Under the pieces are notes generated by a model. The model was given only the letters and a program-made list of their open reading frames with translations. It searched no databases and was not told the DNA's origin. Positions 5,526-63,801 of a stretch of DNA of 64,000 bases are shown piece by piece. The stretch spans positions 1,214 to 65,213 of the forward strand of contig DGWW01000147.1 of assembly GCA_002395385.1 (NCBI GenBank), read 5' to 3'. The first letter of the stretch is position 1; each line of letters starts with the position of its first letter. The position numbers and the translations under genes are program-made. Source of the DNA: Myxococcales bacterium UBA4248 (GTDB taxonomy: Bacteria > Myxococcota_A > Bradymonadia > UBA4248).

Positions 5526-6032
5526 TTGCCAAATACGCCTTCGGCCGCGCCGCTATTGACATACGCGGCGCATACTTTTTTGACACAGGCTATGTCTGAC
5601 CATCGTGGATAAATATTGTTATTTAGTTTTCGGCATTGCATATTTCAAAATTTTGGGATTAGAACTTTGAGCGGCGAATTCTGTCTCGATGCTCCACCAC
5701 CCAAAATTGCAATTTCCCGTATAAAACCCTCACACCAGGCAGAAGACAGATGAAAATATTCTTTTGGGGAATTGTGTTTTTTTAAGCTCTGTTTAACGAG
5801 TGTGGATACACTTGAGCATGTAGCTCATAGCTTATAACTTATAGTTGAGAAATCATTTCATAGGAATCATGCTTTTCCCCACGAGATTTAGATTCCTTCT
5901 ACAAGCTAAAAACGAAAAGCAATAAATAATTGAGTTATCGGAACCAATCATATCCACGGTGGTTAAACACAGCCAAAAAAAAGCCCCGGCAATTGCTTGC
6001 CGAGGCTTTTGAACTCGATTTTTTACACGGTA

Positions 6033-7784
6033 TTAACGACCGCAGCGTGAAGAAATATAGTACCAGTAATATCCGAGCTCATCCTTCCAATACTCGCCAT
6101 CAAATGTCCAGAAGAGATGCTCATCATCGGCACCCATAACTTCATCGACTTGACGTTCGAATTCGAGCAGGGCATTGGGATCCTGTTCCATCAACTCGAC
6201 ACGTGCCGCATATTTCTCGGTTGTTTCAATTTCGATATCGAGTGCACGGTTGGAGAGGTCGCGGAGTTCTTCCTGAAGTCTTTCGAGACGTGATTTACCT
6301 TTTTTACCTGCTTCAACGACGGAGAGCATGCGTGCAGCTTCCAATTCCTGAACCATGGTCTGTCCAAGCGAGGATCCCGAAAGCGCAGGATCTTTCTGAA
6401 TGGTAGCTTTTTCATCATCGAGCATATCGATGTAGGCAAGACCACGTCGGAGTTCACGGTCCTGAACAGAGGCTTCGAGGATCAGCTGCAGTGTAGGATC
6501 GTAGGATTCTCTGTCGGCATTCTGAACCATGTGGAGGAAGTCATAAACTTCTTCGGGCTGGAACAGACGGGAAACGAGCGTGTCAACCTGTTTTTTCATG
6601 GGATCGTAGGTAGCTTTGTAATCCGCAAGAATGTCGACGACGCGATCATAGTGGCAGTTGGTGTAGTAAATGGTAGCCTGAAGAAGACGTGCTTCGGGAT
6701 AATATTTATCGCTGAAGTACGGGCTGTTCAGTGTAAGGAGAAGACCGAGTGCCTTCCCGAAATTATCTACACGATAATAAGCCCAGCTTGCTTCAAAGAG
6801 GGCATCGAGCCACATGCGGCTGTCACGTGAGAAAGCATTGTAATATTTGATGGAAGTAGACCAGCTATTGGCAGCCTTTTCACGTTCACCCATTTTCCAC
6901 AGTGTGGAGCCGACCTGATAGAAGACGCGGGCGAGTGCAGCGTATGTGTATTCGCGAAGACGGGATTCTTCTTTTGTGAGGCCTTCAGCAGAGGTAGATT
7001 TTGTATCGAGCCATCGCAAAACCTCTTTGAATGAATCGAGTGCGGGCTGACCTTTATTCTGACGAACATAGGTCACGCCTTCGAGGTAACGCGATTTGGG
7101 ATACAGCGGGCTATCCTGTGCAACCGAGCCGACGAAGAAAACGACATCATCGAGTTTTGACTCGCGGTATGCGGCCATGGCGAGGAGATATCCCACTTCG
7201 GATGTCAGAGCAGCCGGAACTTCAGCAGGGAATTTATCGAGGTAATTCTCATAAATACGGGCATATCTTCTCGGTTCACCGGGAAGAACACGTCCAATCA
7301 GAACGAGGTAATTGAGTGCCAGGTCGAATTCTTTTGAGCTCGGTCCCTGAGAGACGACCATATCAAAATGGTTCAGAGCTGACTGATAGTACTTGGCTTC
7401 ATAGAGGGCGCGTCCCAATTCATAATGAAGCTGTGCGGACATACCGACAGAAGCACTGTCTCCGGCAGCGATCGTGTCATTCAGGAGCTGAGCAGCCTGA
7501 ATGTAATTACCCGATTCGATCATCGCCTGTGCCTGTGTATAGTTTGCATACGCACCTGAACTTGTATCGATCACGGCCGGGGCTGTCGTGGTGGAAGCAC
7601 CGCCACCTTCAGACCCGAAATCGAGCCCGCTTCCGGAGCCCTCAGCTGCCGCAGAGTTCTCAGTGGACCCCTCATCACCAAAATCCAAACCACCATCCTG
7701 AGCCTGTGCACTCAATGGTGCGAACATCATTGCACCAGCGATTAACACTGCACTTAAGCCTAGCTTCCCACTCTTCAGATGCAT
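6033..7784 (-). CDS. secreted tetratricopeptide (TPR) repeat protein
   Basis: Signal peptide MHLKSGKLGLSAVLIAGAMMFAPLSAQA. Multiple TPR-like Y/A/L-rich helical repeats. Confidence 0.8.
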   Translation of the reverse strand: MHLKSGKLGLSAVLIAGAMMFAPLSAQAQDGGLDFGDEGSTENSAAAEGSGSGLDFGSEGGGASTTTAPAVIDTSSGAYANYTQAQAMIESGNYIQAAQLLNDTIAAGDSASVGMSAQLHYELGRALYEAKYYQSALNHFDMVVSQGPSSKEFDLALNYLVLIGRVLPGEPRRYARIYENYLDKFPAEVPAALTSEVGYLLAMAAYRESKLDDVVFFVGSVAQDSPLYPKSRYLEGVTYVRQNKGQPALDSFKEVLRWLDTKSTSAEGLTKEESRLREYTYAALARVFYQVGSTLWKMGEREKAANSWSTSIKYYNAFSRDSRMWLDALFEASWAYYRVDNFGKALGLLLTLNSPYFSDKYYPEARLLQATIYYTNCHYDRVVDILADYKATYDPMKKQVDTLVSRLFQPEEVYDFLHMVQNADRESYDPTLQLILEASVQDRELRRGLAYIDMLDDEKATIQKDPALSGSSLGQTMVQELEAARMLSVVEAGKKGKSRLERLQEELRDLSNRALDIEIETTEKYAARVELMEQDPNALLEFERQVDEVMGADDEHLFWTFDGEYWKDELGYYWYYISSRCGR

Positions 7785-7903
7785 ACCTATGTCTCCTTAG
7801 CTATCAGCACCATGCTGATGACCTCATTTCAAAAACTGGTATTAAGCTGCCGTAATTGCTACGTCGCAATTTCTTTTAACATGTAAAGACATTGTTTGTC
7901 AAT

Positions 7904-8680
7904 CTATGCCTTAACGAAATTATCCCTTTCATCTTTCCCGGCTGCAATCAGATTTAGACACTCGGACGCGACCCTGAGTCCGAATGTCCCTGTCACAGTT
8001 ATCAGACTGCCCAGTACCGGACGCGCAATTTTCAGACTTCCGTTATGCGACTGCAGGGATCGATGTGTTTCTTTTTGTGCAGGTTCCCGTGAATAGACGC
8101 ATCCAACCCCCTGTGTGACCCCAAACGCGCGCAGGCGCTTGCGTACCTCCCGCGCCAGAGGACAGATTTCTGTCTCCGAAATATCCGCAAAACACACTTC
8201 GGACGGCTTGGTTTTTCTGGCTGCCCCCATGCTCGAAATGACCGGAATCCCAGCCCTGACGCAATGTACGATCAACTCGATTTTTGCATCAATCGTGTCG
8301 ATCGCATCCACAACGACGTCCGGTTGCCTGCCATCCGCAAACGGGGCATCCACCACACTCACATTGGAAGCATCCACGACAGCATCGACGCATTCCACTG
8401 TTATCCCCGGATGAATCGCGCACAAATGGGATTTTGCAACCAATACTTTTGACATTCCCAAAGTGTGTTCATCCGAACCGAGCTGGCGGTTGATGTGATG
8501 AACCGCATAGACGTCGCCATCTACGAGACGAAAAAAGCCCACGCCGCTGCGGGCGAGCGCTTCGGCAGCAAAGCTGCCAACCGCGCCATACCCCACAATA
8601 CACACGTGAGCATTCGAAAAGCGCGCCAGCATTTCATCACCAACCAGCACGCTTACCCGCGAAAATCTTTCGTCACACAT
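7904..8680 (-). CDS. tcdA: ThiF/HesA-family E1-like enzyme, likely tRNA threonylcarbamoyladenosine dehydratase TcdA
   Basis: Rossmann motif VCIVGYGAVGSFAAEALARSGVGFFRLVDGD. About 258 aa. Its start overlaps the upstream stop by 1 nt (TAATG). Confidence 0.65.
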   Translation of the reverse strand: MCDERFSRVSVLVGDEMLARFSNAHVCIVGYGAVGSFAAEALARSGVGFFRLVDGDVYAVHHINRQLGSDEHTLGMSKVLVAKSHLCAIHPGITVECVDAVVDASNVSVVDAPFADGRQPDVVVDAIDTIDAKIELIVHCVRAGIPVISSMGAARKTKPSEVCFADISETEICPLAREVRKRLRAFGVTQGVGCVYSREPAQKETHRSLQSHNGSLKIARPVLGSLITVTGTFGLRVASECLNLIAAGKDERDNFVKA

Positions 8681-9780
8681 TACGGCAGAACGAGGGAGAT
8701 TTCGACGCGATCATTCTTCGCCCTGTTGTCCTTCTGTTTTTCATCATAACGCTGGACATCTTTTCCTTTTGCCGTCGTCATCATGCGTCCGTATTCAACA
8801 CCAAGCGAGACCAGGTAATCACGCGTGGCATCACAGCGCCGCTGGCTGACTTCAAAATAATTTTTCGTGTTTTTCTGTACATGGCCTTCGATCATAACCG
8901 TCTGCACATTATACTTCTTGGCGAGTTCGGCGATGCGCTTTAAAGCCTCCTGTTTGACGGGGAGAATCTCGCTCTTATTCTTTTCGAATGCGCTGGCGAG
9001 TACGATCACGACACTCTTCATATCGGTGAAGACATAGTCAGGTCCAACGATGGCCTGAGCATCGGTAAAGAGTGCTTTTTGACGCTCAGCGGACTGTGCC
9101 TGTGCCTGTTTTTTATCGAAATCGGGCTTAGCCTGTTCATAGGCCTTGGCAAAAAGTTGGCGTGCCTCTTCGGCAGCAGCACCGGCGCCGTCACGGTCAC
9201 CGTGTGAGCTCTTGTCACCGGCTTCTTTCAATTTGGCTTCTGCAGCAGCAAACACATCTTTCTGTGAATCCTGTGCGCCAACACCGGCAGCCTTTTCTCT
9301 TTCTGTCATGGCTGCCTGAATGCGGTTTTCGACATTGGCAATATCTGTATCGGAAATATTTTGTTTAATCAGGCCGACACTCTTGGTCAAGCCTTCATAT
9401 TTTGCATTCAGGGTTTCCATCTGCAATGTGGTTTCTTTGATTTCTTTTTCGGCAGCAGCCTGGCGTTGTTTTGCTTCATTGGCTTTTGCCATAGCACGTG
9501 CCGTCGCATACTGGCGCTGTCCGAGAGCGGCATACGTTTTGGCCTTGCTCTGTTCGCCATCCTGCCATGCATTGAGCGATTTATTCGTCAAATCGGTGCA
9601 AACTTTGTAAGCATCCGGAGCCTGGGTATTGATCTGCGCGGCTTCATCGCTATTGCGGAGCTCTTCGAGCTGTGTCAGCTCGGCGGGTTTATTCTGGGGA
9701 CCACAACCAGACAGAATGCCAAGGGCAGCCACACTACATAATGCCAACTGGAAAATTCTATTCTGTTTCATATTCCGCAC
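8680..9780 (-). CDS. OmpA-family lipoprotein with a long coiled-coil
   Basis: Lipobox LSGC after the signal peptide. C-terminal OmpA-like peptidoglycan-binding domain (...DATRDYLVSLGV...RVEISLV). Confidence 0.8.
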   Translation of the reverse strand: MRNMKQNRIFQLALCSVAALGILSGCGPQNKPAELTQLEELRNSDEAAQINTQAPDAYKVCTDLTNKSLNAWQDGEQSKAKTYAALGQRQYATARAMAKANEAKQRQAAAEKEIKETTLQMETLNAKYEGLTKSVGLIKQNISDTDIANVENRIQAAMTEREKAAGVGAQDSQKDVFAAAEAKLKEAGDKSSHGDRDGAGAAAEEARQLFAKAYEQAKPDFDKKQAQAQSAERQKALFTDAQAIVGPDYVFTDMKSVVIVLASAFEKNKSEILPVKQEALKRIAELAKKYNVQTVMIEGHVQKNTKNYFEVSQRRCDATRDYLVSLGVEYGRMMTTAKGKDVQRYDEKQKDNRAKNDRVEISLVLP

Positions 9781-9782
9781 CC

Positions 9783-10238
9783 CTACTTCTTCATGCTGTC
9801 TGCTTTCGATTTAAGAACATCCTCTTCGGCCGTCAGCTGCTGCACCTGAGCTTCGAGCTTGCCGTATTCCGCCTTCAATGCTTTCAGTTTGGCTTCCGCT
9901 TCCATTGCTTTGCCCATTTCAACATCACGCAGCATGGATGCTTCAACGAAATCAATATAGACACCAAGCTTGAGCACGAGCGAGCTGACTTTTTCTTTCT
10001 CTTCTTTACCAATTAAGATGAGAGCTTCATCGATCCAGCTCGAAATCTGGGACATTTCGCTGTTATATCGTGCCGTATCGCCCGTTTTGATCTTTTCTAC
10101 CCGGAGCTGATACTGACGAACATCATCCCTCAACACCTTAATATCCTGAGCAAACACCTGGGAAACAGGGATGCTCATAAAAATGCCCAATCCCAGAAGG
10201 ACTCCTCGTCCTAAGCGCTTCAAATTCTTCTCAGACAT
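9783..10238 (-). CDS. secreted coiled-coil protein
   Basis: Start MSEKN at 10238 with a GGAGA/AGGAG RBS. Signal peptide ...LLGLGIFMSIPVSQVFA. Heptad-rich sequence. Confidence 0.6.
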   Translation of the reverse strand: MSEKNLKRLGRGVLLGLGIFMSIPVSQVFAQDIKVLRDDVRQYQLRVEKIKTGDTARYNSEMSQISSWIDEALILIGKEEKEKVSSLVLKLGVYIDFVEASMLRDVEMGKAMEAEAKLKALKAEYGKLEAQVQQLTAEEDVLKSKADSMKK

Positions 10239-10582
10239 CACAATCTCCTCTGCATGATTTATCAGCCTCACCATAAGGCTTTAAACAAGAGACACGGATA
10301 CTTAGCGCGAAATATCCCCAATTTCAACATTTCTCTGCGACCTCCGAAAAAACACACAAATAAAAAGTTATGTACAAACACCGCATAGCCCCCATTTATC
10401 CATGATTCAGATTTTGCAATACCCACTTTTTAGCCCCTATCATTATATATATGCAAATGAGCCAAGCCAGGGTGAAGCAGACGCATGCTCATTCTTGCCG
10501 GGGGAGCAGAAGACTGGCGTTTGGCGCATGCATAACCATGAAAGCAAGAGACGTGAGCAGTCACCCCGGATCCCGAGCCGGC

Positions 10583-10640
10583 ACAGGGGGTAGGCGCGTA
10601 TTTGCTTGCAAATAGCGCCGAAGGGGGCTTGCCCCCTACC
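10583..10640. repeat. REP-like nested palindrome
   Basis: GGGGGTAGG...GCGTATTTGC-TT-GCAAATAGCGC...CCCCTACCC. Shares the GCGTATT/AATAGC core with about 12 other intergenic loci. Confidence 0.6.
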
Positions 10641-10900
10641 CAAAACGCAATAAAGCCAAGCTCGTTTGTATGAATCACTGAAAAAAACACGTTCTACCCG
10701 TTCACAGACCATTATTTTTTTGGCATCGCCAAACCCTCATAAAACGAGCATATCATAACGCATTCCCCACATTTCACGCCCTATTGTCCTGTCCCAACGG
10801 GACTTATTCATATTAATTTTGCTTTCGATCATAAAATCACGTATCTTAGAATTAGTTTTTTTGTTTCGGTAACATGTCCGAACCAAGAGGAGCATTTTGA

Positions 10901-15156: not shown

Positions 15157-16272
15157 ATGTTGAATTCTTTGAACAATAATCCCGGGTATGGAAATTTGGA
15201 CGGTATATCCGAAGAAGAAGTTGTCATCAAGGAAGAGTACGAGCCAGAGCCGGATGACTATAACTATGTACCGCAGATTCACGAAGTAGACGAAGCGGAG
15301 ATTCGCAATCTGTCCGCAATCCGCGAAGAGACCCAGGTAGACACCCGTGTCTACAAAGTCAGTGCGGCATTCCTTGTATTGGCACTCATCGGTGGTGGAA
15401 TTGGTCTTGCTGCGGCATCGCACTCTGCCTCCAAGGCAGACATTCAGCGCAAAGCTTCAATTGCCAAAACAATCAAAAATACGACAGAGACCAAGCTGTC
15501 CGGTTTTGACAAGTTCTATTCAGAATTTTCAAAAGTGGCGCAGGCCAACTACGATGAATCGAGCTTCCAAAGTGTCATTGCACAATACAGCAAGTACAAT
15601 TTTATGCTGGACATGTCGAGCGAGGTCACGTCTGAAGCCGTTTTGCTGGCAGGTGAAGCCCAGAATCCGCTCGAAGGTCTGCGTAAATATTCTGCCGACA
15701 CAATGCTTCTGACGCAGCTTTTGAGTTCCCACGTCAACGAGACACGTGCGGACTCGGATGAAATCCTCGAGCTCCAGAGCAAGAGTGACCATTCGAAAGT
15801 TGTATATGCCATGCAGGTTTTGCCGGATGCCATCCATTATCTTGCAACGGATGCCCCGCGTTCCCAGTATGCCAACGGCGTCATCGGCATCTACACCTAT
15901 CGCAGTGTCATCGAAGACGATGTCGAAGCATCGAGTGCATACAGCCAGTTAAAGGTCGATCAGAGATGGTCAGAGTGGCAGCGTTCGCGCCGCGATTATC
16001 AGCCGGCAAACAAGAAAGAGGCCATTCCAGAAGGTCTCGATCTCCCCAATCACCTGCTGTACCGCGTACTCGACCGACGTGGCAACGAATCCTTGCTTTT
16101 TGCAGACGAAGTCATCCTCGTCGACCGTTCTTTGCTCTTCGGCAAGTCGGCAAATGCCCTCGAACGCTACCAGCAGCGCAATGAGATGATCAAAGCCGTG
16201 CTCGATCGTGCAAAATCAGAAAGTGCAAGCATCGTTTCCCAACTCGAATCGTTTATTCCAAAAGATAAGTAA
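15157..16272 (+). CDS. membrane protein of unknown function, paralog A of a tandem pair
   Basis: AGGAGG RBS. One TM (VYKVSAAFLVLALIGGGIGLAAA). The C-terminal 280 aa are homologous to 16366..17667 (NPLEGLRKY.., FADEVILVDRSLLFGKSANALERY). Confidence 0.8.
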   Translation: MLNSLNNNPGYGNLDGISEEEVVIKEEYEPEPDDYNYVPQIHEVDEAEIRNLSAIREETQVDTRVYKVSAAFLVLALIGGGIGLAAASHSASKADIQRKASIAKTIKNTTETKLSGFDKFYSEFSKVAQANYDESSFQSVIAQYSKYNFMLDMSSEVTSEAVLLAGEAQNPLEGLRKYSADTMLLTQLLSSHVNETRADSDEILELQSKSDHSKVVYAMQVLPDAIHYLATDAPRSQYANGVIGIYTYRSVIEDDVEASSAYSQLKVDQRWSEWQRSRRDYQPANKKEAIPEGLDLPNHLLYRVLDRRGNESLLFADEVILVDRSLLFGKSANALERYQQRNEMIKAVLDRAKSESASIVSQLESFIPKDK

Positions 16273-16365
16273 GACCATACGGCACTTCCGTTGCCGTCAC
16301 TCCCTGATATAATCAATTTATTTAGCATTAGACGGATTCGTCCGCCCTTGTTTGCTTAGGAGGGA

Positions 16366-17667
16366 ATGTTGAATTCTTCCAATAACTCAAAGTTCAAGAA
16401 TATCGATGAACTCAAAGCCCGTATGGCTGCCAAAAATAGCGGCGGCGGTGGCGGATTCGGCGGTGGCGCAGGCGGCTTCGGCGGCGGTGGCGGTTTCGGC
16501 GGCGGATTCAGTGGGAAAGTTCCCAAACAATCCAAAGAAATCGTCATTCATGATGAAGATAAAGGCCCAGGGAAAATGTTCGACTTCGATATGGATCAGG
16601 TCGATAAATCCCTCATGCCACCCAAAGATAATACGAAACCTATCATGGTTTGTTTCGTAGGCGTCATCTGCCTCGTTTTCGGATGCTTCATCGGATGGTG
16701 CTGGCAGGGCGTTCTCGCCGATCGCGCGAGCGTTAACGAACGTATCAAAGTCGCAAATGAAGTTGAGGGTCACGTTCAGCCCAAAATCGATGCCTTCCAA
16801 ACTTTTGCACAGGTCTGGAAACAACGCAGCGAATCCCTCGGTGCCGGCGTCCTCGAATACAATCACGACTTCTACAATAACGTCATTAAAACTTATAAAA
16901 GCAAAAACTTTATCCTCGACGTCAGCTCCGACCTGCCCAAAGGTACCATCTCCATGGCCAGCAACTCCGCTCAAAATCCCCTGAGCGACCTCCGCGGCTT
17001 CGGTGCCGGTACCACACTCCTCGGCGCACTCCTCGATTCCCACATTCAGCAGACCGACGCTGATATGGATGAAATCCAGACCCTCCTCGGACAAAGCAGC
17101 GCCACCGACAGACATATCGTCTATGCTCTCAAAGTCGATGCCGCTCAATTGCTCACCCTCACCGAAATGGGCTCCGACCGTTTCCTCAAAGCCTTTACCT
17201 GCACACAAGTTTATCAGGTAAAACGCGCTATCACCGACGATACCGAAGCTAGCAAGATTTTCCAGCAAATGATCGATTCCGGTAAGGTTCCTGCCGATCA
17301 GGTCAAAGCCAGAACTTATTCCGAAGAAGAAGACGTTCAGAAGAAAAAGGCAAAGGAAAAAGCTGCAAAAGCCGCAAAAGCCGGTAAAAAAGTTGACGAA
17401 GTTGCCGAAATCACGACCGATCCCAACCTCGTACTGCCCAAACGTCTCATCTATGAGATCGTCGATAAATCCGGTGCTTCCCAATATGTCTTCGCCGATG
17501 AAGTCATTCTCATCGGACGCGACAAGCTCTTTGCTGAAAGCGCAAACGCCCTTGAGCGCTATCGTAAACGTATGATTCAGATACTGGCCATCCTCGGCGA
17601 AATCGAAAAAACGACCGATGGACTCCAGAACAGACTCCATATCATCGCTACCGAAGAGCCTCTATAA
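16366..17667 (+). CDS. membrane protein of unknown function, paralog B of a tandem pair, with a Gly-rich N-terminus and a Lys-rich insert
   Basis: Nearly the same RBS/start context as paralog A (gcttaggaggg-ATGTTGAATTCTT). One TM. Conserved C-terminal FADEVILIGRDKLFAESANALERY. The antisense ORF 16387..17640 is rejected. Confidence 0.8.
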   Translation: MLNSSNNSKFKNIDELKARMAAKNSGGGGGFGGGAGGFGGGGGFGGGFSGKVPKQSKEIVIHDEDKGPGKMFDFDMDQVDKSLMPPKDNTKPIMVCFVGVICLVFGCFIGWCWQGVLADRASVNERIKVANEVEGHVQPKIDAFQTFAQVWKQRSESLGAGVLEYNHDFYNNVIKTYKSKNFILDVSSDLPKGTISMASNSAQNPLSDLRGFGAGTTLLGALLDSHIQQTDADMDEIQTLLGQSSATDRHIVYALKVDAAQLLTLTEMGSDRFLKAFTCTQVYQVKRAITDDTEASKIFQQMIDSGKVPADQVKARTYSEEEDVQKKKAKEKAAKAAKAGKKVDEVAEITTDPNLVLPKRLIYEIVDKSGASQYVFADEVILIGRDKLFAESANALERYRKRMIQILAILGEIEKTTDGLQNRLHIIATEEPL

Positions 17668-17678
17668 GCTACCTTAAA

Positions 17679-17703
17679 GCCTCTGGAAACAGAGGCTTTT
17701 TTA
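17679..17703 (+). terminator. Rho-independent terminator
   Basis: GCCTCTG-GAAA-CAGAGGC followed by TTTTTT. Confidence 0.7.
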
Positions 17704-17824
17704 TTGCCTGTTTCACATCTTTCTCCCCCGCTTCATTACCGATGATACACACCTCATCGCTTTTCTATTAAAGAGTGGGGCCGGGTTATTTCGCTGCGCT
17801 CAATACACCACGGCCTTCGACGCT

Positions 17825-18421
17825 ATGATATACGCGTCGAATTTTTTATTTGTACCTCGCTCACAAACGGCCAATGCCATGCGTATTCTGTTTTCTGCTC
17901 TCATTTTCCTTACACTTGCCGCCCTATCCCCCGCTATCGCATCTGCACATCCGGATTCTCACGAAATTATTCAGAAAATTGCGCTCGAAGAACTCGCCAT
18001 CACCAATTCCAAACTCCCCATTGCTTTAAAATTGCCCAAAACCTGGAAATCTCAGCCCACCAATGAAAACACACTGATTTTCTGGGTGCCCTACCACAAT
18101 GGTGTGATGGGACATATCGAAAAGAGAGACAATCCCATGTCCTGGAACGATTCAATCTCGTTTCTCTCCGATTTTTTTAAAACCAAATTCAAAGAGGATT
18201 CGAAAGAAACTTTCCAGTTGGAATCGGGGATTCAAGGGGAAAAAGGTACGATTTCCGGCCCCATCGGTGGCGAGGAATACAGGTTATTTGTGTGCGTCGC
18301 CCAATTAGCGGACAACACGGTAATCTTGTATTACGCTTCTGCGCCGATTCTCTGGTTCCAGGCCTACGAACCTTTATTGAATGACATCCTCAAATCTTTC
18401 CAATTGCCCTCTGCCAATTAA
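17825..18421 (+). CDS. hypothetical secreted protein. The start may be the internal M at 17879
   Basis: Signal-peptide-like MRILFSALIFLTLAALSPAIASA. No known domain recognised. Confidence 0.5.
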   Translation: MIYASNFLFVPRSQTANAMRILFSALIFLTLAALSPAIASAHPDSHEIIQKIALEELAITNSKLPIALKLPKTWKSQPTNENTLIFWVPYHNGVMGHIEKRDNPMSWNDSISFLSDFFKTKFKEDSKETFQLESGIQGEKGTISGPIGGEEYRLFVCVAQLADNTVILYYASAPILWFQAYEPLLNDILKSFQLPSAN

Positions 18422-18535: not shown

Positions 18536-19000
18536 CTACCATCCAAACGGCTCTCGCAAGCAGTACGCATTGGGATAATACCGAATTCTCGGCATTTTTT
18601 TTCTGGGTACGATCAGTGCGGCAATATCGCAACGATATACAGCTTTGAGCCTTGCATGGTTACCAATCCACTGTCGGATCGTCGCAGACAATTTGCGTTG
18701 TTTTGCAGCTGTGACATTGAGTTCTGGGGATAGTCCTTCTGCATTTGAACGCGATTTGACCTCGACAAAAACGACAGTCGGATAGCCTTTCAAATCAGCA
18801 TGCATCTTACAGGCAATAATATCGACCTCGCCACGCGGCGTTTCATAATTGCGCGCAAGGATGCTCCAACCGCGATTTTTTAAATAATGTATGACCAAAT
18901 TCTCTGCACTGCGACCAACTCGTCTTGCAGCCGTCAAAAAACGATAATGCGGTGTCCAGAATTGCCTCTGATGTAAGTGTTTGTGAGTTTGTTTGTTCAT
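18536..19000 (-). CDS. yraN: YraN-family (UPF0102) PD-(D/E)xK endonuclease-like protein
   Basis: ...GEVDIIACK...VVFVEVKSRSN... Start MNKQTHK at 19000 with an AGGAGG RBS. The listed ORF extends 14 codons further upstream without an RBS. Confidence 0.65.
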   Translation of the reverse strand: MNKQTHKHLHQRQFWTPHYRFLTAARRVGRSAENLVIHYLKNRGWSILARNYETPRGEVDIIACKMHADLKGYPTVVFVEVKSRSNAEGLSPELNVTAAKQRKLSATIRQWIGNHARLKAVYRCDIAALIVPRKKMPRIRYYPNAYCLREPFGW

Positions 19001-19014
19001 TCTTTTCCTCCTTT

Positions 19015-19205
19015 GTCCACAAGTTATCCACAGGATTATCACCCCCCTTGTGCAAAATCAGGCGAGTCAAGCAGAAAAACTTCTTTCTCTAAAAATATAT
19101 TTTTCCTTTTAAATACAGTAGTTTACGAAAATTGATTCAATTTTATCCTTGACAGGGTTTTCATCCGTTCATCCACAGTTTAAATTGCCATCCTGTGGAT
19201 AAGTT
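19015..19205. promoter_or_regulatory. cluster of DnaA-box-like 9-mers flanking an AT-rich stretch
   Basis: TTATCCACA at about 19024 and, on the reverse strand, at about 19194 (TGTGGATAA). Variants TTATCCTTG (19143), TTCATCCGT and TTCATCCACA (19160-19177). AT-rich block 19081-19150. Hairpin CATCCACAG...CCTGTGGATAAG. Confidence 0.5.
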
Positions 19206-19235
19206 GTGCACATTTGGGGAACTTGTGTACTTTTG

Positions 19236-21173
19236 CTAGGGTAAAAACCGAATATGCAAGCAGGAAATGCCTTGCGACTTCAAAATGGGCGAAGTTTGTT
19301 CAAAGAGTCCCCCGACATCCTCTTCGTGCACCATTTGAGGGAAAACCGCTGCCGTATAAATTTGTCGTACAAAACTGCGCAACACGAGCGAATTGGCTTT
19401 CTTTTTCTTAAGAAGCTCCCACATCCCCGCATAATGTTTTCTCATAGTCGCAACATTGCAGGAAAAAGCAGATTCCATTTTTTGAGAGGTTACAATCACT
19501 CTTGGATTATCCGGAACATCCGCAGGTGAGATGGGCACCCATCTGCCCTGAGTTTTGCCCCATAAATGCGGCATTCCCAATGTTCGACAGATGATCATTT
19601 CGTCCAATCGGAGCACCATTTTGCGCGTTTTCCACGTGTTCTGCAGTTCTTCGCGCGCCTGAATTTTAGATTCAAAATGCGCCTGATAGGTTTCAATTTC
19701 ATCACTCTGATCGCGCGCTCTAAAAGTGACAATTCGTATTTGATCATGCTTCTGCCCCTTTCGAATCAGGCGCCCGTTTCTCTGTTGGATCAGCACCGGA
19801 TTCCATGGCAAATCAAAATGTATGATTGCGCATGCCCTCTGAAAATTTTGTCCGCAGGAAAAGGCATCCGTACAAATCAATATTCGGGCCATTTTCTGCC
19901 CGGTTCTATCCCACCATTCAGGCATCTTCAGGTCGGGGTTGAACATCGCCATGAGCAAATTGGCATCGATTTCGTAATGATTTAACCGTGCAGTTCCCGA
20001 TGTGAGCAGCCCCACACGTCCCAATTCCGAAAGCGACTTCTCTAAAATGCGCGCAGTATCACAGTATTGTGTAAAAATGACGATCTGCTCATCCTCATCC
20101 ATCGTTCGAATCCATGCCTTGAGGCGATGCAGTTTTTCATCCGGTTCATGCTTGCAAATCCATTCCAATTCGTGAACAACAGAACCAATTTGATCCAGAA
20201 TCTCGTTTAGATGAAACTGCCCCGTCTGCACTTCCCGCGTTCCTTTGCCCAAAGGCAAACATAACTGCCTGCCCTCTATGCCCATCATTTTATAAAAAGC
20301 TTTGCGCGTCATCAGACGATCCTCCGGATTGAGCGCACAAATCCTATAAAACCTCGCAATTTTTTTAAGACTGCACAAACAGGCTTCGCGATGACTGAAC
20401 AGACGATGTAACAACAAATTCCGTATGAGATGCAGCTCCACGGCCCCAGTCGATGTCTGAACCAGCCACGGAACGGTCTGGATCTGTTCGATAACCCTTT
20501 GAATTCCTGATTGACATGGGCTGATTGCATACACAATCTCACAATTCTGACATCCGAACAGTCCCTCCGGCATGAGCCTCATCACCAGCGTCTGCGGACG
20601 AATGGCATTGGCAAAACTCCTCAGCCATGCATTATCCTTGATGCAATCGGGAAATCCGCACAATGACATGAGCGCCCTTAGATCTGCCCAGGACAGACTA
20701 ACCGGTGTTGCCGTAATCAGGCACACCCGATGGCGAGCAGTCCAGACGCGCAAATGGCGGTGACGAAGCGTTGCGGGATTTTTTAATAGATGCGCTTCAT
20801 CCAAAATCCATAGGCTGTCCGGCACTTTTGGACAGTCAATCCTCTCAAGACTCACCATCTGATAGGAATAGAATGAAGCTTCAACCCCAAATATCGTCAA
20901 TACCCTGCGCCAGTGATCCTGCAAATGCGCTGGCGCAGCAACGACAATGTGTACGTCCGGATTGGTTTGCATATACCACGCTGCAAGTGCGGACACGACG
21001 AATGTTTTGCCTGTTCCGGTGGACTCATCCACAAGAACTGCACGATGATTGCTCAGGATTTCACAGCATGCCTGTAACGTTCTTTGCTGAGGTACTGTCA
21101 GCAAATCAAGTATTTCTGCCCCAACGGGAGGTGGTGTTTCGCGGTCTTCCAGGTACTGTCGTATGCAATCCAT
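19236..21173 (-). CDS. SNF2-family helicase/ATPase
   Basis: Motif I DESTGTGKT, motif II DEAH, motif III LITATPV. Helicase-C motifs ...ILICTDAFSCGQNFQ...HFDLPWNPVLIQQRNGRLIRKGQ. Begins 8 bp after the methyltransferase stop, so it is in an operon. Confidence 0.9.
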   Translation of the reverse strand: MDCIRQYLEDRETPPPVGAEILDLLTVPQQRTLQACCEILSNHRAVLVDESTGTGKTFVVSALAAWYMQTNPDVHIVVAAPAHLQDHWRRVLTIFGVEASFYSYQMVSLERIDCPKVPDSLWILDEAHLLKNPATLRHRHLRVWTARHRVCLITATPVSLSWADLRALMSLCGFPDCIKDNAWLRSFANAIRPQTLVMRLMPEGLFGCQNCEIVYAISPCQSGIQRVIEQIQTVPWLVQTSTGAVELHLIRNLLLHRLFSHREACLCSLKKIARFYRICALNPEDRLMTRKAFYKMMGIEGRQLCLPLGKGTREVQTGQFHLNEILDQIGSVVHELEWICKHEPDEKLHRLKAWIRTMDEDEQIVIFTQYCDTARILEKSLSELGRVGLLTSGTARLNHYEIDANLLMAMFNPDLKMPEWWDRTGQKMARILICTDAFSCGQNFQRACAIIHFDLPWNPVLIQQRNGRLIRKGQKHDQIRIVTFRARDQSDEIETYQAHFESKIQAREELQNTWKTRKMVLRLDEMIICRTLGMPHLWGKTQGRWVPISPADVPDNPRVIVTSQKMESAFSCNVATMRKHYAGMWELLKKKKANSLVLRSFVRQIYTAAVFPQMVHEEDVGGLFEQTSPILKSQGISCLHIRFLP

Positions 21174-21181
21174 AGCTCACC

Positions 21182-24157
21182 TCATGCACAGCGAAGATGG
21201 GCACTTGCCATGTATTTTTCAATCAGCACATCAATCTGCTGTGTGACTGCGCTGCACTCTGACTTCATGGAGTGACATTGCTTAGAAAGTTCAATCATTT
21301 CCTTCACTTCATCGGATTGTGTGTCTTCCCCAAAACACCAGGGCAGCCCCTCAATGACCCAGGCAAAAAATCTTCGGTAATTGTTCTGGGCATGTTCCGC
21401 GCGACGACTACAATAATCACGGGCAAATGAAGAATTCAGATAGGCTGACAGGAGATACCCGACATCGCGCGATCTGACAGCAATGTAATAAACGGTATTC
21501 AATGGAATAATGCCGGATTCCTCCACGAAACACGCTTCAATCGTGTGTGCAATATCGCGCCAGACCACCTTCGGAAAGGCCAAATGATGCGACACACCAA
21601 ACAAAGAATGACTGCATTTGCGCCCAAGTCCCTTTCGTGCAAGCAATCCCTCCCTGTTCTGTTCAAACCAGCGCTCTGCACAAGGAGGCAATTGCCCAAG
21701 TACCTCCATTCCTCGATCAAATGCATGGGTAAACACAATTTCCCTTTCTGTTCGATACCCATACGCCCGAATATCAGCACCTCTCAACGCGGGATGTATC
21801 AGCATTCGCTCGATCTCAATCGGCTCAGAACGAGTTCTCATCCGCGCCAGCACCAAATGACCTGCAGCCATGGTCTCGGCGGGTATGAAGATGTCATTCG
21901 CCCCGGTACAGACACCTCTTTTCACTGTAAAAAAGTCGCCGATCGTACCATTCAGGGAAGACGGGTTCTTCAAAATGAGCTCCGGACGCGGCGATGGCTT
22001 TGTCTTCTGAGATACAAATGTCGGCTGTATTTCGGTCCTGCACAAAATCAAAGTTGTCGGATATGCAGCAGCCGCAAATGTATTGCATTTCGAATGAGAC
22101 AAATCCTGAATGGACATAATCACAGTATGCGAAGCAATATGGTTTCTGAAACTCTCATAGGACGGAGCATTGAATAATTTGTTCGGAACGATCATGGCAA
22201 TCAGTCCATTCGATCGCGCACATCGAATCGCTTTTTCAATAAAAAGCGCACTCACATCGGAGGATTGCGCTTTCGTCCCCCGAATGGGAATCGCCGTCTG
22301 ATAAAGCACACGAAGGGCATTTTGTGCAGAATCGGGCATGGTGTGCAGCGAAAACCACGGAGGATTCCCCAAAACCATATCAAAACCACCCTGCTCGAGA
22401 ATGTCCCCAAAATGAATTTCAAAACTGAATCCCGGAACAAGCCCAAACTCCAGATAATTCCTGAACTTAACCTTTTGTGCTTCGAGTACCGCCAGATGCT
22501 TCTGGTCCCGGACCGAAATCTGTGCTTTTCCAAACAACGCCCCTTGCACACTTCGGTACTGCCGGCATGCATCATCACACTGCGCAATCATCTGCGACAT
22601 CATCTGTGCGCTCATTCGCTGCAGATTCAGTTCGATCTGTTTGGCTAGTTTTTTCTTAGTTGGCCCCGACGAAAGCCGATAACGATGTTTCAGGTGACTG
22701 ATCTCCTGAATACATGGCAAATCGCGTTTAGGTACCCCCAGTATTTTTGCCAGCTGGCCACATTCGACCAGTGCATCACCACACTGAATGTTGACATCGA
22801 GATTTGGTAGTGAAGGAATATCCTCAGTCTTGTCAAAATATTGCATCAGCTCAAGCCATAGCCGCAGTTCACAGATTTGCCTGGCCGCTGGCACAATATC
22901 CACGCCGTACAAATTCCTCGATAAAATCTGCCTGGCTAAACTCCCCGCAGATTCCGCATGAGAATAGCGATTTTGCAATCCCGTTCGAATACGATGCAAA
23001 AGGCTCAGTGAACACTGCAAAAAAGAGCCGCTGCCAGCTGCCGGATCGAGAATCGATAGCTTCGAGAGCCGTTCTTCAATCTTTTGGGCTGCTTCCGGCC
23101 CAATATCACCATACGCATCCCTCAACAGAATCCCATCAATTTGTGCCTCCGACAACGCCGTTTCATTCCGGAACCATTGACGAAAGACATCCAGCACCAC
23201 CTTCCTCGCCATTGGAATCGGCGTATAGTAAGACCCTGTCGCATTTCGATTATCTTTGCGCATCAGGGTCTCAAACACATGACCGAGCATGAGCGGATCG
23301 AGCGACAAAGCATGATTCGACTGTGAATGATGGGTTGTCAGTGCATAACGGCCAAATAATTCCCCCAAAATTTCAATCCAAATCTCATTGGGCGCCGTCA
23401 AATGCGGAGAACGCAATTCATGCCCACCCGGCGTGAACAAACCGCCATTTAAAAATGGGATTTTTCCAAACTTGCGAACGCGCTGGGTACGCCTGTGTGG
23501 GGCACGATTGAGCGTCTCGAAAAAGAGCGGCTGCAAAAAATCACCATAGATGGATCCACCGCCATCCCGGCATTTGCGCGCCTCTGCAACCAAAAAATCC
23601 GATCGATTATCCAAAATCCCGCGAGCCTCAAGGAATGCCGTAAAAAACAACCTCAAAAGGGTATCCAATGCAAGCTGATGCCGGATTTCATGCGTATCAT
23701 TTGTAATATTCTGCCAACTTTCAGCGAGTTTGTGACAATAATGCTTAAAAGAAGCAACAAATTTCTGTTCCAAACGCCGTTTCCCAAATTTGCGATCGAG
23801 CTCAAACACAAATTCCAGATAGGTTGACAAATCTCCTAGTTCAGCCAATTCCTCATTATTTTCCCACGCCACATCGTTGGCCACAATGGGGGATGCATCA
23901 AACACTGACTGTGCATAGATATCGATGACACATTTACCCGGGTAATCGATGATCACAACCGAATCTGGGTGCGTTTGCAGAAATCGGTGAATTCGACTTA
24001 TGACTGGCGCCGCCTCAGCACCAAAGACATAGATCTCCATACACGTCCCAACGGCCTTAAATGCACTGACGACATTCGTAATTTCAGCCTCTGCCAACTC
24101 AACAATACTGGCATGCCATGCATTGCGGACAAAATCGACGAGCCCCTTGTGTTCCAT
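21182..24157 (-). CDS. large N6-adenine DNA methyltransferase of the Eco57I/MmeI/PglX-like gamma class, with a helical N-domain and a C-terminal TRD
   Basis: FLNGGLF and GSYYTP motifs, SAM motif I LDPAAGSGSFL, motif IV NPPW, C-terminal TaqI_C-like specificity region. 991 aa. Confidence 0.9.
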   Translation of the reverse strand: MEHKGLVDFVRNAWHASIVELAEAEITNVVSAFKAVGTCMEIYVFGAEAAPVISRIHRFLQTHPDSVVIIDYPGKCVIDIYAQSVFDASPIVANDVAWENNEELAELGDLSTYLEFVFELDRKFGKRRLEQKFVASFKHYCHKLAESWQNITNDTHEIRHQLALDTLLRLFFTAFLEARGILDNRSDFLVAEARKCRDGGGSIYGDFLQPLFFETLNRAPHRRTQRVRKFGKIPFLNGGLFTPGGHELRSPHLTAPNEIWIEILGELFGRYALTTHHSQSNHALSLDPLMLGHVFETLMRKDNRNATGSYYTPIPMARKVVLDVFRQWFRNETALSEAQIDGILLRDAYGDIGPEAAQKIEERLSKLSILDPAAGSGSFLQCSLSLLHRIRTGLQNRYSHAESAGSLARQILSRNLYGVDIVPAARQICELRLWLELMQYFDKTEDIPSLPNLDVNIQCGDALVECGQLAKILGVPKRDLPCIQEISHLKHRYRLSSGPTKKKLAKQIELNLQRMSAQMMSQMIAQCDDACRQYRSVQGALFGKAQISVRDQKHLAVLEAQKVKFRNYLEFGLVPGFSFEIHFGDILEQGGFDMVLGNPPWFSLHTMPDSAQNALRVLYQTAIPIRGTKAQSSDVSALFIEKAIRCARSNGLIAMIVPNKLFNAPSYESFRNHIASHTVIMSIQDLSHSKCNTFAAAAYPTTLILCRTEIQPTFVSQKTKPSPRPELILKNPSSLNGTIGDFFTVKRGVCTGANDIFIPAETMAAGHLVLARMRTRSEPIEIERMLIHPALRGADIRAYGYRTEREIVFTHAFDRGMEVLGQLPPCAERWFEQNREGLLARKGLGRKCSHSLFGVSHHLAFPKVVWRDIAHTIEACFVEESGIIPLNTVYYIAVRSRDVGYLLSAYLNSSFARDYCSRRAEHAQNNYRRFFAWVIEGLPWCFGEDTQSDEVKEMIELSKQCHSMKSECSAVTQQIDVLIEKYMASAHLRCA

Positions 24158-63663: not shown

Positions 63664-63801
63664 GTTCTGTATAACGAGAGTGTGGATAAGCTCTGAGCTT
63701 AGAGCTTAGAGCTTAGAGTGATGAACCCCTTCTCCAAGCGCCAAGCCAGAATGGGGTTATTCGACAGTAAAAAACTCCACACTCGTTAAACCGGGCCAAG
63801 C

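What the first reader, a model, noticed from the sequence alone, without database searches (positions are those of the whole stretch)
19015..19205. Cluster of DnaA-box-like 9-mers around an AT-rich block between yraN and the methyltransferase-helicase operon
Within about 190 bp there are:
- two perfect TTATCCACA boxes in opposite orientation, at about 19024 and 19194;
- at least three one- or two-mismatch boxes (TTATCCTTG, TTCATCCGT, TTCATCCACA);
- a roughly 70 bp run that is more than 75% AT (19081-19150).

The expected chance density of such 9-mers is far lower. This layout resembles an origin or DUE, a DnaA-titration locus, or a DnaA-regulated promoter for yraN. A weaker cluster (cgTGGATAA, TGTGGATAc, TATCCACgg) lies at 5600-5960. 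dnaA itself is not in the window. Still, rpmH-rnpA-yidD-yidC-jag, which is normally next to dnaA and oriC, lies 21 kb away. The region may therefore be origin-proximal.
Basis: seen in the sequence. Interest (0 to 1): 0.55.

Follow-up and report, generated by a model that had tools for sequence, protein, structure and literature searches.

The report
Conserved DnaA-box cluster upstream of yraN
A real and evolutionarily conserved cluster of binding sites for the replication initiator DnaA lies in front of the nuclease gene yraN, but strand-composition evidence says it is not the chromosome's replication origin, so it most likely lets DnaA control yraN.

Summary
Perfect TTATCCACA boxes lie at 19024 (+) and 19194 (-), one-mismatch boxes at 19013 and 19169, and an 80% AT block lies between them. 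None of 300 simulated windows reached this density.

The element fills the 235-bp spacer between an SNF2-helicase gene and yraN. In the window it is a ~217-bp imperfect palindrome: inward-facing box pairs, inner inverted GTCAAG-N3-AAAA motifs, and an AT-rich core.

Nine of ten lineages examined (YraN down to 49% identity, helicase down to 33%) keep a box cluster at this junction. Five closer relatives keep the box-to-box distance at 170-173 bp (158 bp in a sixth), and the proximal boxes mostly abut the yraN ribosome-binding site.

It is not oriC by the tests available:
- GC skew keeps one sign across the site in six lineages.
- The module occurs in both orientations relative to the skew.
- There is no DnaA-trio run.
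- No dnaA or dnaN lies within the 77 kb available.

The best reading is a non-origin DnaA operator that controls yraN and may also titrate DnaA. In 1.68 Mb of control loci, the only two clusters of three or more boxes also sit directly upstream of yraN (Bifidobacterium reuteri and L104).

It is a new member of a known kind, of moderate interest.

The parts
18536..19000 (-). yraN (UPF0102 / YraN family PD-(D/E)xK nuclease), 154 aa. This is the gene immediately downstream of the element.
   Evidence: PF02021 E=9e-22; NCBIfam YraN models; ATG at 19000 preceded by AGGAGG; the same 154-aa gene call is found on 12 public contigs.
19007..19012 (-). Shine-Dalgarno sequence AGGAGG of yraN, directly abutted by the proximal DnaA box.
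   Evidence: Sequence read. The unit TGTGGATAACTTGTGGACAAAGGAG is conserved in L190, L099 and L188.
19013..19021 (+). Proximal arm, box 2: TTGTCCACA (1 mismatch). It lies 11 bp in phase with the perfect box.
   Evidence: conserved in L190 and L188, and as TTATGCACA in L099.
19024..19032 (+). Proximal arm, box 1: perfect TTATCCACA, pointing towards the AT-rich core.
   Evidence: A perfect box sits at the equivalent position in L190, L099, L102, L188 and L098; in L098 it has the opposite orientation.
19066..19078 (.). Inner inverted-repeat arm GTCAAGCAGAAAA. On the yraN strand it reads TTTTCTGCTTGAC.
   Evidence: Inverted repeat I4, 13 nt, 85% complementary. The TTTTnTGCTTGAC block is conserved in six lineages. 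It is 38-41 bp from the proximal box in five lineages and 28 bp in L098.
19079..19140 (.). AT-rich core (77% AT between the inner motifs). It contains the conserved T-rich block at about 19088-19102 (TATTTATTTTT in relatives). The yraN promoter is presumed to lie here (inferred).
   Evidence: The core is 77-78 bp long and 67-77% AT in five lineages. No sigma-70 consensus hit was found.
19141..19153 (.). Inner inverted-repeat arm TTTTATCCTTGAC. On the yraN strand it reads GTCAAGGATAAAA, and TGTCAA is invariant.
   Evidence: Inverted repeat I4; TGTCAA is invariant in 7 of 7 aligned lineages; it is 48-50 bp from the distal perfect box.
19169..19177 (+). Extra one-mismatch box TCATCCACA, specific to the window's species.
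   Evidence: absent at this position in relatives.
19194..19202 (-). Distal arm, box 1: perfect TTATCCACA on the yraN strand, pointing towards the AT-rich core. It lies 170 bp from the proximal perfect box.
   Evidence: invariant columns in alignment A2; box-to-box distance is 170-173 bp in five lineages.
19204..19212 (.). Degenerate partner of the distal box (TTGTGCACA, palindromic core). It sits where relatives carry a second tandem box 11 bp away.
   Evidence: L190 has TTATACACA and L099 has TTATCCACA at this position.
19005..19221 (.). The whole element: a ~217-bp imperfect palindrome with outer arms at 19005-19036 and 19190-19221.
   Evidence: Inverted repeat I1, 32 nt, 81% complementary. 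An nhmmer profile built from seven lineages matches its own reverse complement at E=4e-12, and occurs once per locus.
19236..21173 (-). SNF2-family helicase gene whose 3' end borders the element. In some relatives it contains the distal boxes.
   Evidence: Pfam SNF2-rel_dom and Helicase_C. The family is confined to this lineage. In L098, L102 and L188 the distal boxes lie inside the last codons.
21182..24157 (-). Eco57I/MmeI-like N6-adenine DNA methyltransferase, the first gene of the conserved methyltransferase-helicase-yraN trio.
   Evidence: synteny.

Best explanation
The element is a lineage-conserved DnaA-box cluster that is not an origin. It works as a dyad-symmetric 'DnaA operator' built around the yraN promoter region.

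Two inward-facing sets of DnaA boxes lie about 170 bp apart. They flank an AT-rich core and a pair of inner inverted GTCAAG-N3-AAAA motifs. The proximal boxes touch the yraN ribosome-binding site.

Proposed mechanism (inferred, not shown): DnaA occupies both arms. It may be bridged or looped with the help of an unknown protein bound to the inner motifs. In this way it sets transcription of yraN according to the amount or nucleotide state of DnaA. Given that the proximal boxes lie between the AT-rich core and the start codon, repression is the most likely direction.

YraN is an ssDNA / D-loop endonuclease, so this would couple a recombination nuclease to replication status. As a side effect the site would also titrate some DnaA.

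Shown here: the boxes, their conservation, their geometry, and the absence of origin signatures. Inferred: DnaA binding, the position of the promoter, and the direction of regulation.
For: - The cluster is real and non-random.
- Nine of ten lineages examined keep at least 3 boxes in the helicase-yraN spacer. This holds down to 49% YraN identity and 33% helicase identity, and even where the outer neighbours differ.
- In alignment A2 the boxes and two inner motifs are the invariant columns of an otherwise variable spacer.
- The spacings are fixed: box to TGTCAA 48-50 bp, TGTCAA to TTGAC 81-84 bp, and TTGAC to box 38-41 bp in five lineages (28 bp in L098). The total is 170-173 bp in those five.
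- The unit of proximal box pair plus Shine-Dalgarno sequence is conserved. In L188 it is duplicated, so that both the 172-bp geometry and the adjacency of box and Shine-Dalgarno sequence are kept.
- In L098, L102 and L188 the distal boxes persist inside the helicase coding sequence. This argues for selection at the DNA level.
- The link is to yraN. In 160 unrelated yraN loci (1.68 Mb), the only two clusters of 3 or more boxes both lie directly upstream of yraN. They are in Bifidobacterium reuteri (yraN-comM-dprA) and L104, and neither locus has the helicase.
- Origin signatures are absent.
- DnaA is an established transcription factor that acts through boxes in promoters (PMC13438810 introduction; PMC3245932).
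- YraN is an ssDNA endonuclease that acts with the ComM helicase on transformation D-loops (bioRxiv 10.1101/2024.02.06.579203).
Against: - No promoter could be identified. The sigma-70 consensus scan found nothing on the yraN strand, and the conserved TTGAC has no conserved -10 element at 16-19 nt.
- A simple repressed promoter does not need a second box set at a fixed 170 bp, nor the inner inverted motifs.
- One relative (L191) has yraN without any boxes.
- Most distant yraN loci carry no boxes: a mean of 0.14 against a background of 0.10 per 450 bp.
- DnaA binding itself is untested, and this organism's DnaA has not been seen.
- A second subclade (L095, L184) has 5-6 direct, helically phased boxes and none of the inner motifs, so the palindromic layout is not universal.
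Confidence: 0.55

Rival explanations
1. The element is a locus that controls DnaA activity or titrates DnaA, comparable to E. coli datA or DARS or the B. subtilis DnaA-box clusters. Two DnaA arms would be brought together by an architectural protein bound at the inner GTCAAG-N3-AAAA repeats. The complex would sequester DnaA or change its nucleotide state. The adjacency to yraN would be secondary.
For: - The rigid 170-173 bp geometry, inward-facing arms and conserved inner inverted motifs point to a defined higher-order nucleoprotein complex rather than a plain operator.
- Clusters of this kind exist outside oriC and can also regulate neighbouring genes (PMC3245932; PMC13438810 introduction).
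- This reading does not exclude the best explanation.
Against: - There are only 4-6 boxes.
- The proximal boxes are tied to the yraN Shine-Dalgarno sequence, and L188 keeps this link by duplication.
- Independent box clusters upstream of yraN in two unrelated lineages point to the gene, not to a chromosomal position.
- The module sits in either orientation relative to replication in different lineages.
- The inner motif does not fit the IHF consensus as I recall it (WATCAANNNNTTR; from my own knowledge).
Confidence: 0.2
2. The element is a chromosomal replication origin. It could be the primary oriC, or a cryptic or secondary origin-like sequence of the Pseudomonas oriCII type, with the AT-rich core serving as the DUE.
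For: - Inward-facing DnaA-box arrays with 11-bp phasing flank an 80% AT block.
- It is the strongest box cluster in 77 kb.
- Its position is conserved.
- Replication genes lie in the neighbourhood (dnaX-ybaB, recD2, ssb, and the rpmH cluster 21 kb away).
- Origin-like regions that are not the in-vivo origin are known (oriCII, PMC13438810).
Against: - There is no GC-skew sign change at the site in the window. Third-position skew on the + strand is -0.27 for + strand genes and -0.17 for - strand genes over 7-58 kb.
- There is no sign change in L095, L098, L099, L102 or L192 either, where skew is -0.1 to -0.5 on both sides.
- The yraN strand is G-rich in two lineages and C-rich in four. A fixed origin would not allow this.
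- The longest DnaA-trio run next to either arm is 2 or less, the same as random sequence.
- No dnaA or dnaN lies within -9 to +68 kb.
- The sequence between the boxes and the core is not conserved.
Confidence: 0.08
3. The element acts mainly on the upstream operon. DnaA bound at the distal boxes would block or terminate read-through from the methyltransferase-helicase genes. Alternatively, the outward-facing TTGACA at 19149-19154 would drive an antisense transcript into the helicase 3' end.
For: - The distal boxes overlap or directly follow the helicase stop codon in all lineages.
- No intrinsic terminator was found after the helicase gene.
- A perfect TTGACA hexamer faces the helicase and is invariant.
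- DnaA has been proposed to act as a transcription terminator (PMC13438810 introduction).
Against: - No conserved -10 element follows either TTGAC hexamer.
- This does not explain the proximal boxes at the yraN Shine-Dalgarno sequence.
- It does not explain the box clusters in front of yraN in lineages that lack the helicase.
Confidence: 0.07
4. The 9-mers are recognised by a protein other than DnaA, or they are a repeat family with no binding role.
For: DnaA binding has not been tested, and this organism's DnaA has not been seen. The inner motifs show that at least one other factor probably binds here.
Against: - The exact canonical DnaA consensus TTATCCACA is kept as a perfect copy in every lineage that has a cluster.
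- The 11/21/22-bp helical phasing is typical of DnaA arrays.
- The element occurs once per locus and is not a dispersed repeat.
Confidence: 0.05

Closest known systems
[quoted passage not shown]
   Same: Both are intergenic clusters of consensus DnaA boxes that are not origins. They sit in front of a gene that DnaA can regulate (sda, ywlC, yydA), and together they can also restrain initiation (PMC3245932).
   Different: - Here there are only 4-6 boxes.
- The layout is a rigid palindrome with extra inner motifs.
- The target gene is yraN.
- The host is an uncultivated lineage whose MAGs are labelled 'Proteobacteria bacterium' or 'Bradymonadales'.
- Neither DnaA binding nor any effect on initiation has been tested.
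Pseudomonas aeruginosa oriCII (gidA promoter region)
   Same: Both are origin-like DnaA-box regions that are not the chromosome's working origin. In oriCII, DnaA binding to five boxes regulates the adjacent operon (PMC13438810).
   Different: oriCII can drive plasmid replication and lies in the classical origin neighbourhood (gidAB-parAB). Here autonomous replication is untested, no origin-indicator gene is adjacent, and there is no sequence relationship.
E. coli datA and DARS1/DARS2
   Same: Both are non-origin DnaA-box clusters whose function depends on box orientation and spacing. In datA and DARS2 it also depends on an architectural protein bound between the boxes (established knowledge; summarised in the abstracts of PMC4585315, PMC5010248 and PMC5742627).
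   Different: No IHF- or Fis-like consensus was recognised. The element here is tied to the translation start of a gene. Its effect on DnaA-ATP and DnaA-ADP is unknown.
oriC DnaA-oligomerisation region with flanking DUE (E. coli type) and the basal unwinding system (box pair + DnaA-trios + AT-rich region)
   Same: Both have oppositely oriented DnaA-box arrays facing each other, 11-bp phasing and an AT-rich segment.
   Different: - There is no skew switch.
- There are no DnaA-trios.
- No dnaA or dnaN linkage exists.
- The AT-rich block lies between the two arms rather than outside them.
- The element lies in either replication orientation in different lineages.

Membership tests
oriC (chromosomal replication origin) | Cluster of DnaA boxes | tested here: met
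   There are 2 perfect and 2 one-mismatch boxes in 190 bp; 0 of 300 simulations reach this density.
oriC (chromosomal replication origin) | AT-rich DNA-unwinding element next to the boxes | tested here: inconclusive
   Positions 19081-19150 are 80% AT, and the core is 67-77% AT in relatives. Unwinding itself cannot be tested here, and the composition is equally expected for a promoter.
oriC (chromosomal replication origin) | Run of DnaA-trios (3'-[G/A]A[T/A]-5', three or more in phase) adjoining a box pair (basal unwinding system) | tested here: not met
   The longest run is 0-2 next to either arm in 7 lineages. This is the same as random 66% AT sequence.
oriC (chromosomal replication origin) | GC-skew polarity switch (cumulative-skew minimum) at the site | tested here: not met
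   The sign is the same on both sides in the window (77 kb, including third codon positions of genes on both strands) and in L095, L098, L099, L102 and L192.
oriC (chromosomal replication origin) | Linkage to dnaA/dnaN or other origin-indicator genes | tested here: not met
   Neighbours are a methyltransferase, an SNF2 helicase, yraN and three unknown genes. No Bac_DnaA hit was found in the window. The rpmH cluster is 21 kb away and has no boxes upstream of it.
oriC (chromosomal replication origin) | Marker-frequency peak or autonomous replication | not testable with these tools
   This needs read-depth profiles of a closed genome or a plasmid assay.
DnaA-regulated promoter (DnaA acting as transcription factor) | DnaA boxes within or next to the 5' regulatory region of the gene | tested here: met
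   Boxes end 13 and 24 nt upstream of the yraN ATG and abut the Shine-Dalgarno sequence. A second set lies 170 bp further upstream.
DnaA-regulated promoter (DnaA acting as transcription factor) | Boxes are conserved together with the gene in relatives | tested here: met
   This holds in 9 of 10 lineages. Independent clusters lie upstream of yraN in B. reuteri and L104.
DnaA-regulated promoter (DnaA acting as transcription factor) | Identified promoter or transcription start overlapping the boxes | tested here: inconclusive
   No sigma-70 consensus site was found on the yraN strand. The conserved TTGAC lacks a conserved -10 element.
DnaA-regulated promoter (DnaA acting as transcription factor) | DnaA binding and DnaA-dependent expression | not testable with these tools
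   This needs EMSA, footprinting, ChIP or reporter assays.
Non-origin loci that control DnaA (datA, DARS, B. subtilis DnaA-box clusters) | Several DnaA boxes outside oriC in a fixed arrangement | tested here: met
Non-origin loci that control DnaA (datA, DARS, B. subtilis DnaA-box clusters) | Architectural-protein site (IHF or Fis) between the boxes | tested here: inconclusive
   Conserved inverted GTCAAG-N3-AAAA motifs are present. They do not match the IHF consensus as I recall it, and the protein that binds them is unknown.
Non-origin loci that control DnaA (datA, DARS, B. subtilis DnaA-box clusters) | Effect on initiation frequency or on the DnaA nucleotide state | not testable with these tools
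   This needs genetics or biochemistry.

The most novel reading that the evidence does not exclude
The element is a looped nucleoprotein switch. DnaA sits on two inward-facing arms, and an unknown partner sits on the inner GTCAAG-N3-AAAA repeats. The switch couples the state of the replication initiator to expression of the D-loop / ssDNA nuclease YraN.

[quoted passage not shown] In this lineage YraN may work with the adjacent lineage-specific SNF2 helicase, as it does with ComM elsewhere.
Probability: 0.2. Interest if true: 0.6.

Novelty: new member of a known kind. Interest (0 to 1): 0.4.

Why it matters
- It shows that a textbook-looking 'origin signature' (consensus DnaA boxes around an AT-rich block) can be a conserved non-origin element. 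Box-based origin predictors would mis-call it in genomes of this uncultivated lineage.
- It gives a concrete, testable case of DnaA acting away from the origin outside the few model organisms.
- It nominates yraN as a DnaA target. YraN was recently shown to be the ComM-partnered nuclease that processes transformation D-loops. The link would connect replication status with recombination.
- The fixed palindromic geometry and the unassigned inner motif suggest a defined complex worth reconstituting.

Tried and rejected
- Source genome and close relatives. The one genome-contig scan and the one metagenome-contig scan with YraN returned only distant YraNs, 42% identity or less. I reused them as a control set. 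Relatives came instead from the protein search plus exact-protein contig look-ups.
- oriC reading. Rejected on skew, DnaA-trios and gene linkage.
- The cluster at 5600-5960. It is at chance level. The 10275-10900 spacer, where gene orientation diverges, has only 2-mismatch boxes.
- Promoter and terminator consensus scan. Nothing was found on the yraN strand. My manual search for a -10 element after the conserved TTGAC hexamers failed in both directions.
- Structured RNA. There was no Rfam match at E up to 1 in 18800-19400.
- General association of DnaA boxes with yraN. There is no overall enrichment (0.14 against 0.10 boxes per 450 bp), only two strong outliers.
- Defence-island reading of the methyltransferase-helicase pair. 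Scores are far below the DISARM and BREX cut-offs, and the block is core synteny across the lineage.
- GTCAAG as a possible methyltransferase target. It is only mildly under-represented (16 against 29 +/- 5.8), which is not conclusive.
- Literature. No paper links yraN with DnaA.

Full report
OBSERVATION

Perfect TTATCCACA boxes lie at 19024-19032 (+) and 19194-19202 (-). One-mismatch boxes lie at 19013-19021 and 19169-19177. Positions 19081-19150 are 80% AT, against 52% for the window. Four boxes within 200 bp were never reached in 300 Markov simulations of the window. This is by far the strongest box cluster in the 77 kb I could reconstruct from the window plus overlapping public contigs.

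TTATCCTTG belongs to another conserved motif, and TTCATCCGT is not a box. The 'weaker cluster' at 5600-5960 is at chance level.

ANATOMY

- yraN (PF02021) is 18536-19000 on the minus strand, with its ATG at 19000 and an AGGAGG at 19007-19012.
- Upstream on the same strand lie an SNF2-family helicase gene (19236-21173) and an Eco57I/MmeI-like methyltransferase gene (21182-24157).
- The element fills the 235-bp spacer between the helicase gene and yraN.
- It is an imperfect palindrome. The outer arms are 19005-19036 and 19190-19221 (32 nt, 81% complementary), and each carries a box pair that points inwards.
- The inner arms are GTCAAGCAGAAAA (19066-19078) and TTTTATCCTTGAC (19141-19153).
- A 77% AT core lies between the inner arms.

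CONSERVATION

The organism is known only from metagenomes. The window is the reverse complement of a 109-kb ENA scaffold. NCBI labels related MAGs 'Proteobacteria bacterium' or 'Bradymonadales'. The nearest named YidC relatives are Bradymonadales, Desulfobacterota and Bdellovibrio.

YraN relatives of 49-88% identity and helicase relatives down to 33% identity were traced to their contigs. Nine of the ten lineages examined have methyltransferase, SNF2 helicase, DnaA-box cluster and yraN in that order, even where the outer neighbours differ.

In the alignment of seven lineages, the invariant columns of an otherwise variable spacer are the boxes, TGTCAA, a T-rich block (TATTTATTTTT) and TTTTnTGCTTGAC. 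The spacings are fixed:
- distal box to TGTCAA: 48-50 bp;
- TGTCAA to TTGAC: 81-84 bp;
- TTGAC to proximal box: 38-41 bp in five lineages, 28 bp in L098;
- box to box: 170-173 bp in those five lineages, 158 bp in L098.

The most divergent lineage, L192, is looser (61, 92 and about 26 bp).

A profile of the element matches its own reverse complement (E=4e-12) and occurs once per locus. In L098, L102 and L188 the distal boxes lie inside the last helicase codons. In L188 the proximal pair is duplicated, so that both the 172-bp geometry and the adjacency of the box to the Shine-Dalgarno sequence are kept.

A second subclade (L095, L184) instead has 5-6 direct boxes in 11/21/22-bp phase. One relative (L191) has none.

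IS IT THE ORIGIN?

The available tests say no.
- GC skew is negative on both sides of 19.1 kb, and the cumulative skew falls steadily from about 7 to 58 kb.
- Third-codon-position skew on the + strand is -0.27 for + strand genes and -0.17 for - strand genes. The asymmetry therefore reflects replication, not transcription.
- In five relatives there is again no sign change at the cluster, and in four of them (L095, L098, L102, L192) local skew reaches -0.2 to -0.5.
- The yraN strand is G-rich in two lineages and C-rich in four.
- No run of DnaA-trios adjoins either arm.
- No DnaA domain was found among the window's genes.
- The spacer upstream of rpmH (40483-40635) carries no boxes.

A cryptic origin-like sequence of the Pseudomonas oriCII type (PMC13438810) cannot be excluded without experiments.

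WHAT IT MOST LIKELY IS

It is most likely a non-origin DnaA-binding element tied to yraN. The proximal boxes sit 13-32 nt before the ATG and touch the Shine-Dalgarno sequence.

The link to yraN recurs independently. In 160 unrelated yraN loci (1.68 Mb) fetched as by-products, the only two clusters of three or more boxes both lie directly upstream of yraN. One is in Bifidobacterium reuteri DSM 23975, before yraN-comM-dprA. The other is on contig L104, where a NUDIX gene replaces the helicase. Overall box density upstream of yraN is not enriched, so this is a recurrent theme and not a universal one.

DnaA is an established transcription factor that acts through promoter boxes. Box clusters outside oriC both regulate neighbouring genes and restrain initiation in B. 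subtilis (PMC3245932; PMC13438810 introduction). YraN has recently been shown to be an ssDNA endonuclease that works with the ComM helicase to resolve transformation D-loops (bioRxiv 10.1101/2024.02.06.579203). No paper in the library links yraN with DnaA.

MECHANISM (INFERRED)

DnaA occupies both arms. The fixed spacing of about 16 helical turns and the inner inverted motifs suggest a bridged or looped complex with a second, unknown protein. That complex would enclose the AT-rich core, where the promoter presumably lies. Occupancy of the proximal boxes would then hinder transcription of yraN. The site would also soak up some DnaA.

Weak points:
- No promoter could be identified.
- DnaA binding is untested.
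- The palindromic layout is not shared by all subclades.

RIVALS

The rivals are a datA/DARS/DBC-type locus that controls DnaA (0.2), an origin or cryptic origin (0.08), a roadblock or antisense promoter acting on the helicase operon (0.07), and a factor other than DnaA (0.05).

VERDICT

The origin reading is rejected on present evidence. The readings as a DnaA-regulated promoter or a DnaA-binding locus are supported. This is a new member of the known class of non-origin DnaA-box clusters. It has an unusually rigid symmetric architecture and a plausible new target gene. Interest is moderate.

Noticed in passing
window 18536-24157; L095, L098, L099, L102, L184, L192: The Eco57I/MmeI-like methyltransferase, the SNF2 helicase and yraN form an invariant trio in all relatives, although the outer neighbours change. 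The helicase family is confined to this lineage (24 members at E<1e-78, the next at 1e-26). Scores are far below the DISARM and BREX cut-offs. This may be a helicase/nuclease pair analogous to ComM/YraN; that is untested.
   Followed up: partly
L057 9705-9770 (Bifidobacterium reuteri DSM 23975, NZ_JGZK01000003.1) and L104 2160-2247: These are the only two clusters of three or more DnaA boxes in 1.68 Mb of unrelated yraN loci. Both lie directly upstream of yraN: before yraN-comM-dprA in B. reuteri, and next to a NUDIX gene in L104.
   Followed up: partly
window about 6700-10900, and 40483-44958: GC skew is about 0 or slightly positive left of about 6.7 kb and negative to the right. Gene orientation diverges at the 10275-10900 spacer. 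rpmH-rnpA-yidD-yidC-jag and dnaX-ybaB lie on the C-rich strand. Either these core genes are head-on to replication, or the skew polarity or local history is unusual.
   Followed up: partly
window 19066-19078 and 19141-19153: The inverted motif GTCAAG-N3-AAAA is conserved in relatives and is found at no other place in the window. GTCAAG/CTTGAC is mildly under-represented in the window (16 against 29 +/- 5.8). The binding protein is unknown. A link to the adjacent methyltransferase is pure speculation.
   Followed up: partly
window 63681-63720: A third perfect TTATCCACA (63681-63689, -) stands alone in a convergent spacer, directly followed by a short (GAGCTTA)n tandem repeat.
   Followed up: no
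window 16366-17667 (+) and 16387-17640 (-): Two long ORFs (433 and 417 aa) overlap almost fully on opposite strands. The + strand gene is the one called in public contigs and has an extreme third-position skew of -0.58.
   Followed up: no
L095 9868-9901: In the subclade with direct box arrays, a perfect 15-bp inverted repeat (CCCTTAGGATAACTC / GAGTTATCCTAAGGG) containing TTATCCTAA half-sites follows the last box.
   Followed up: no
window 15157-18421, conserved in L098 and L192: Three genes with no Pfam or NCBIfam match (371, 433 and 198 aa) converge on yraN. They are syntenic in relatives with only 33% helicase identity.
   Followed up: no
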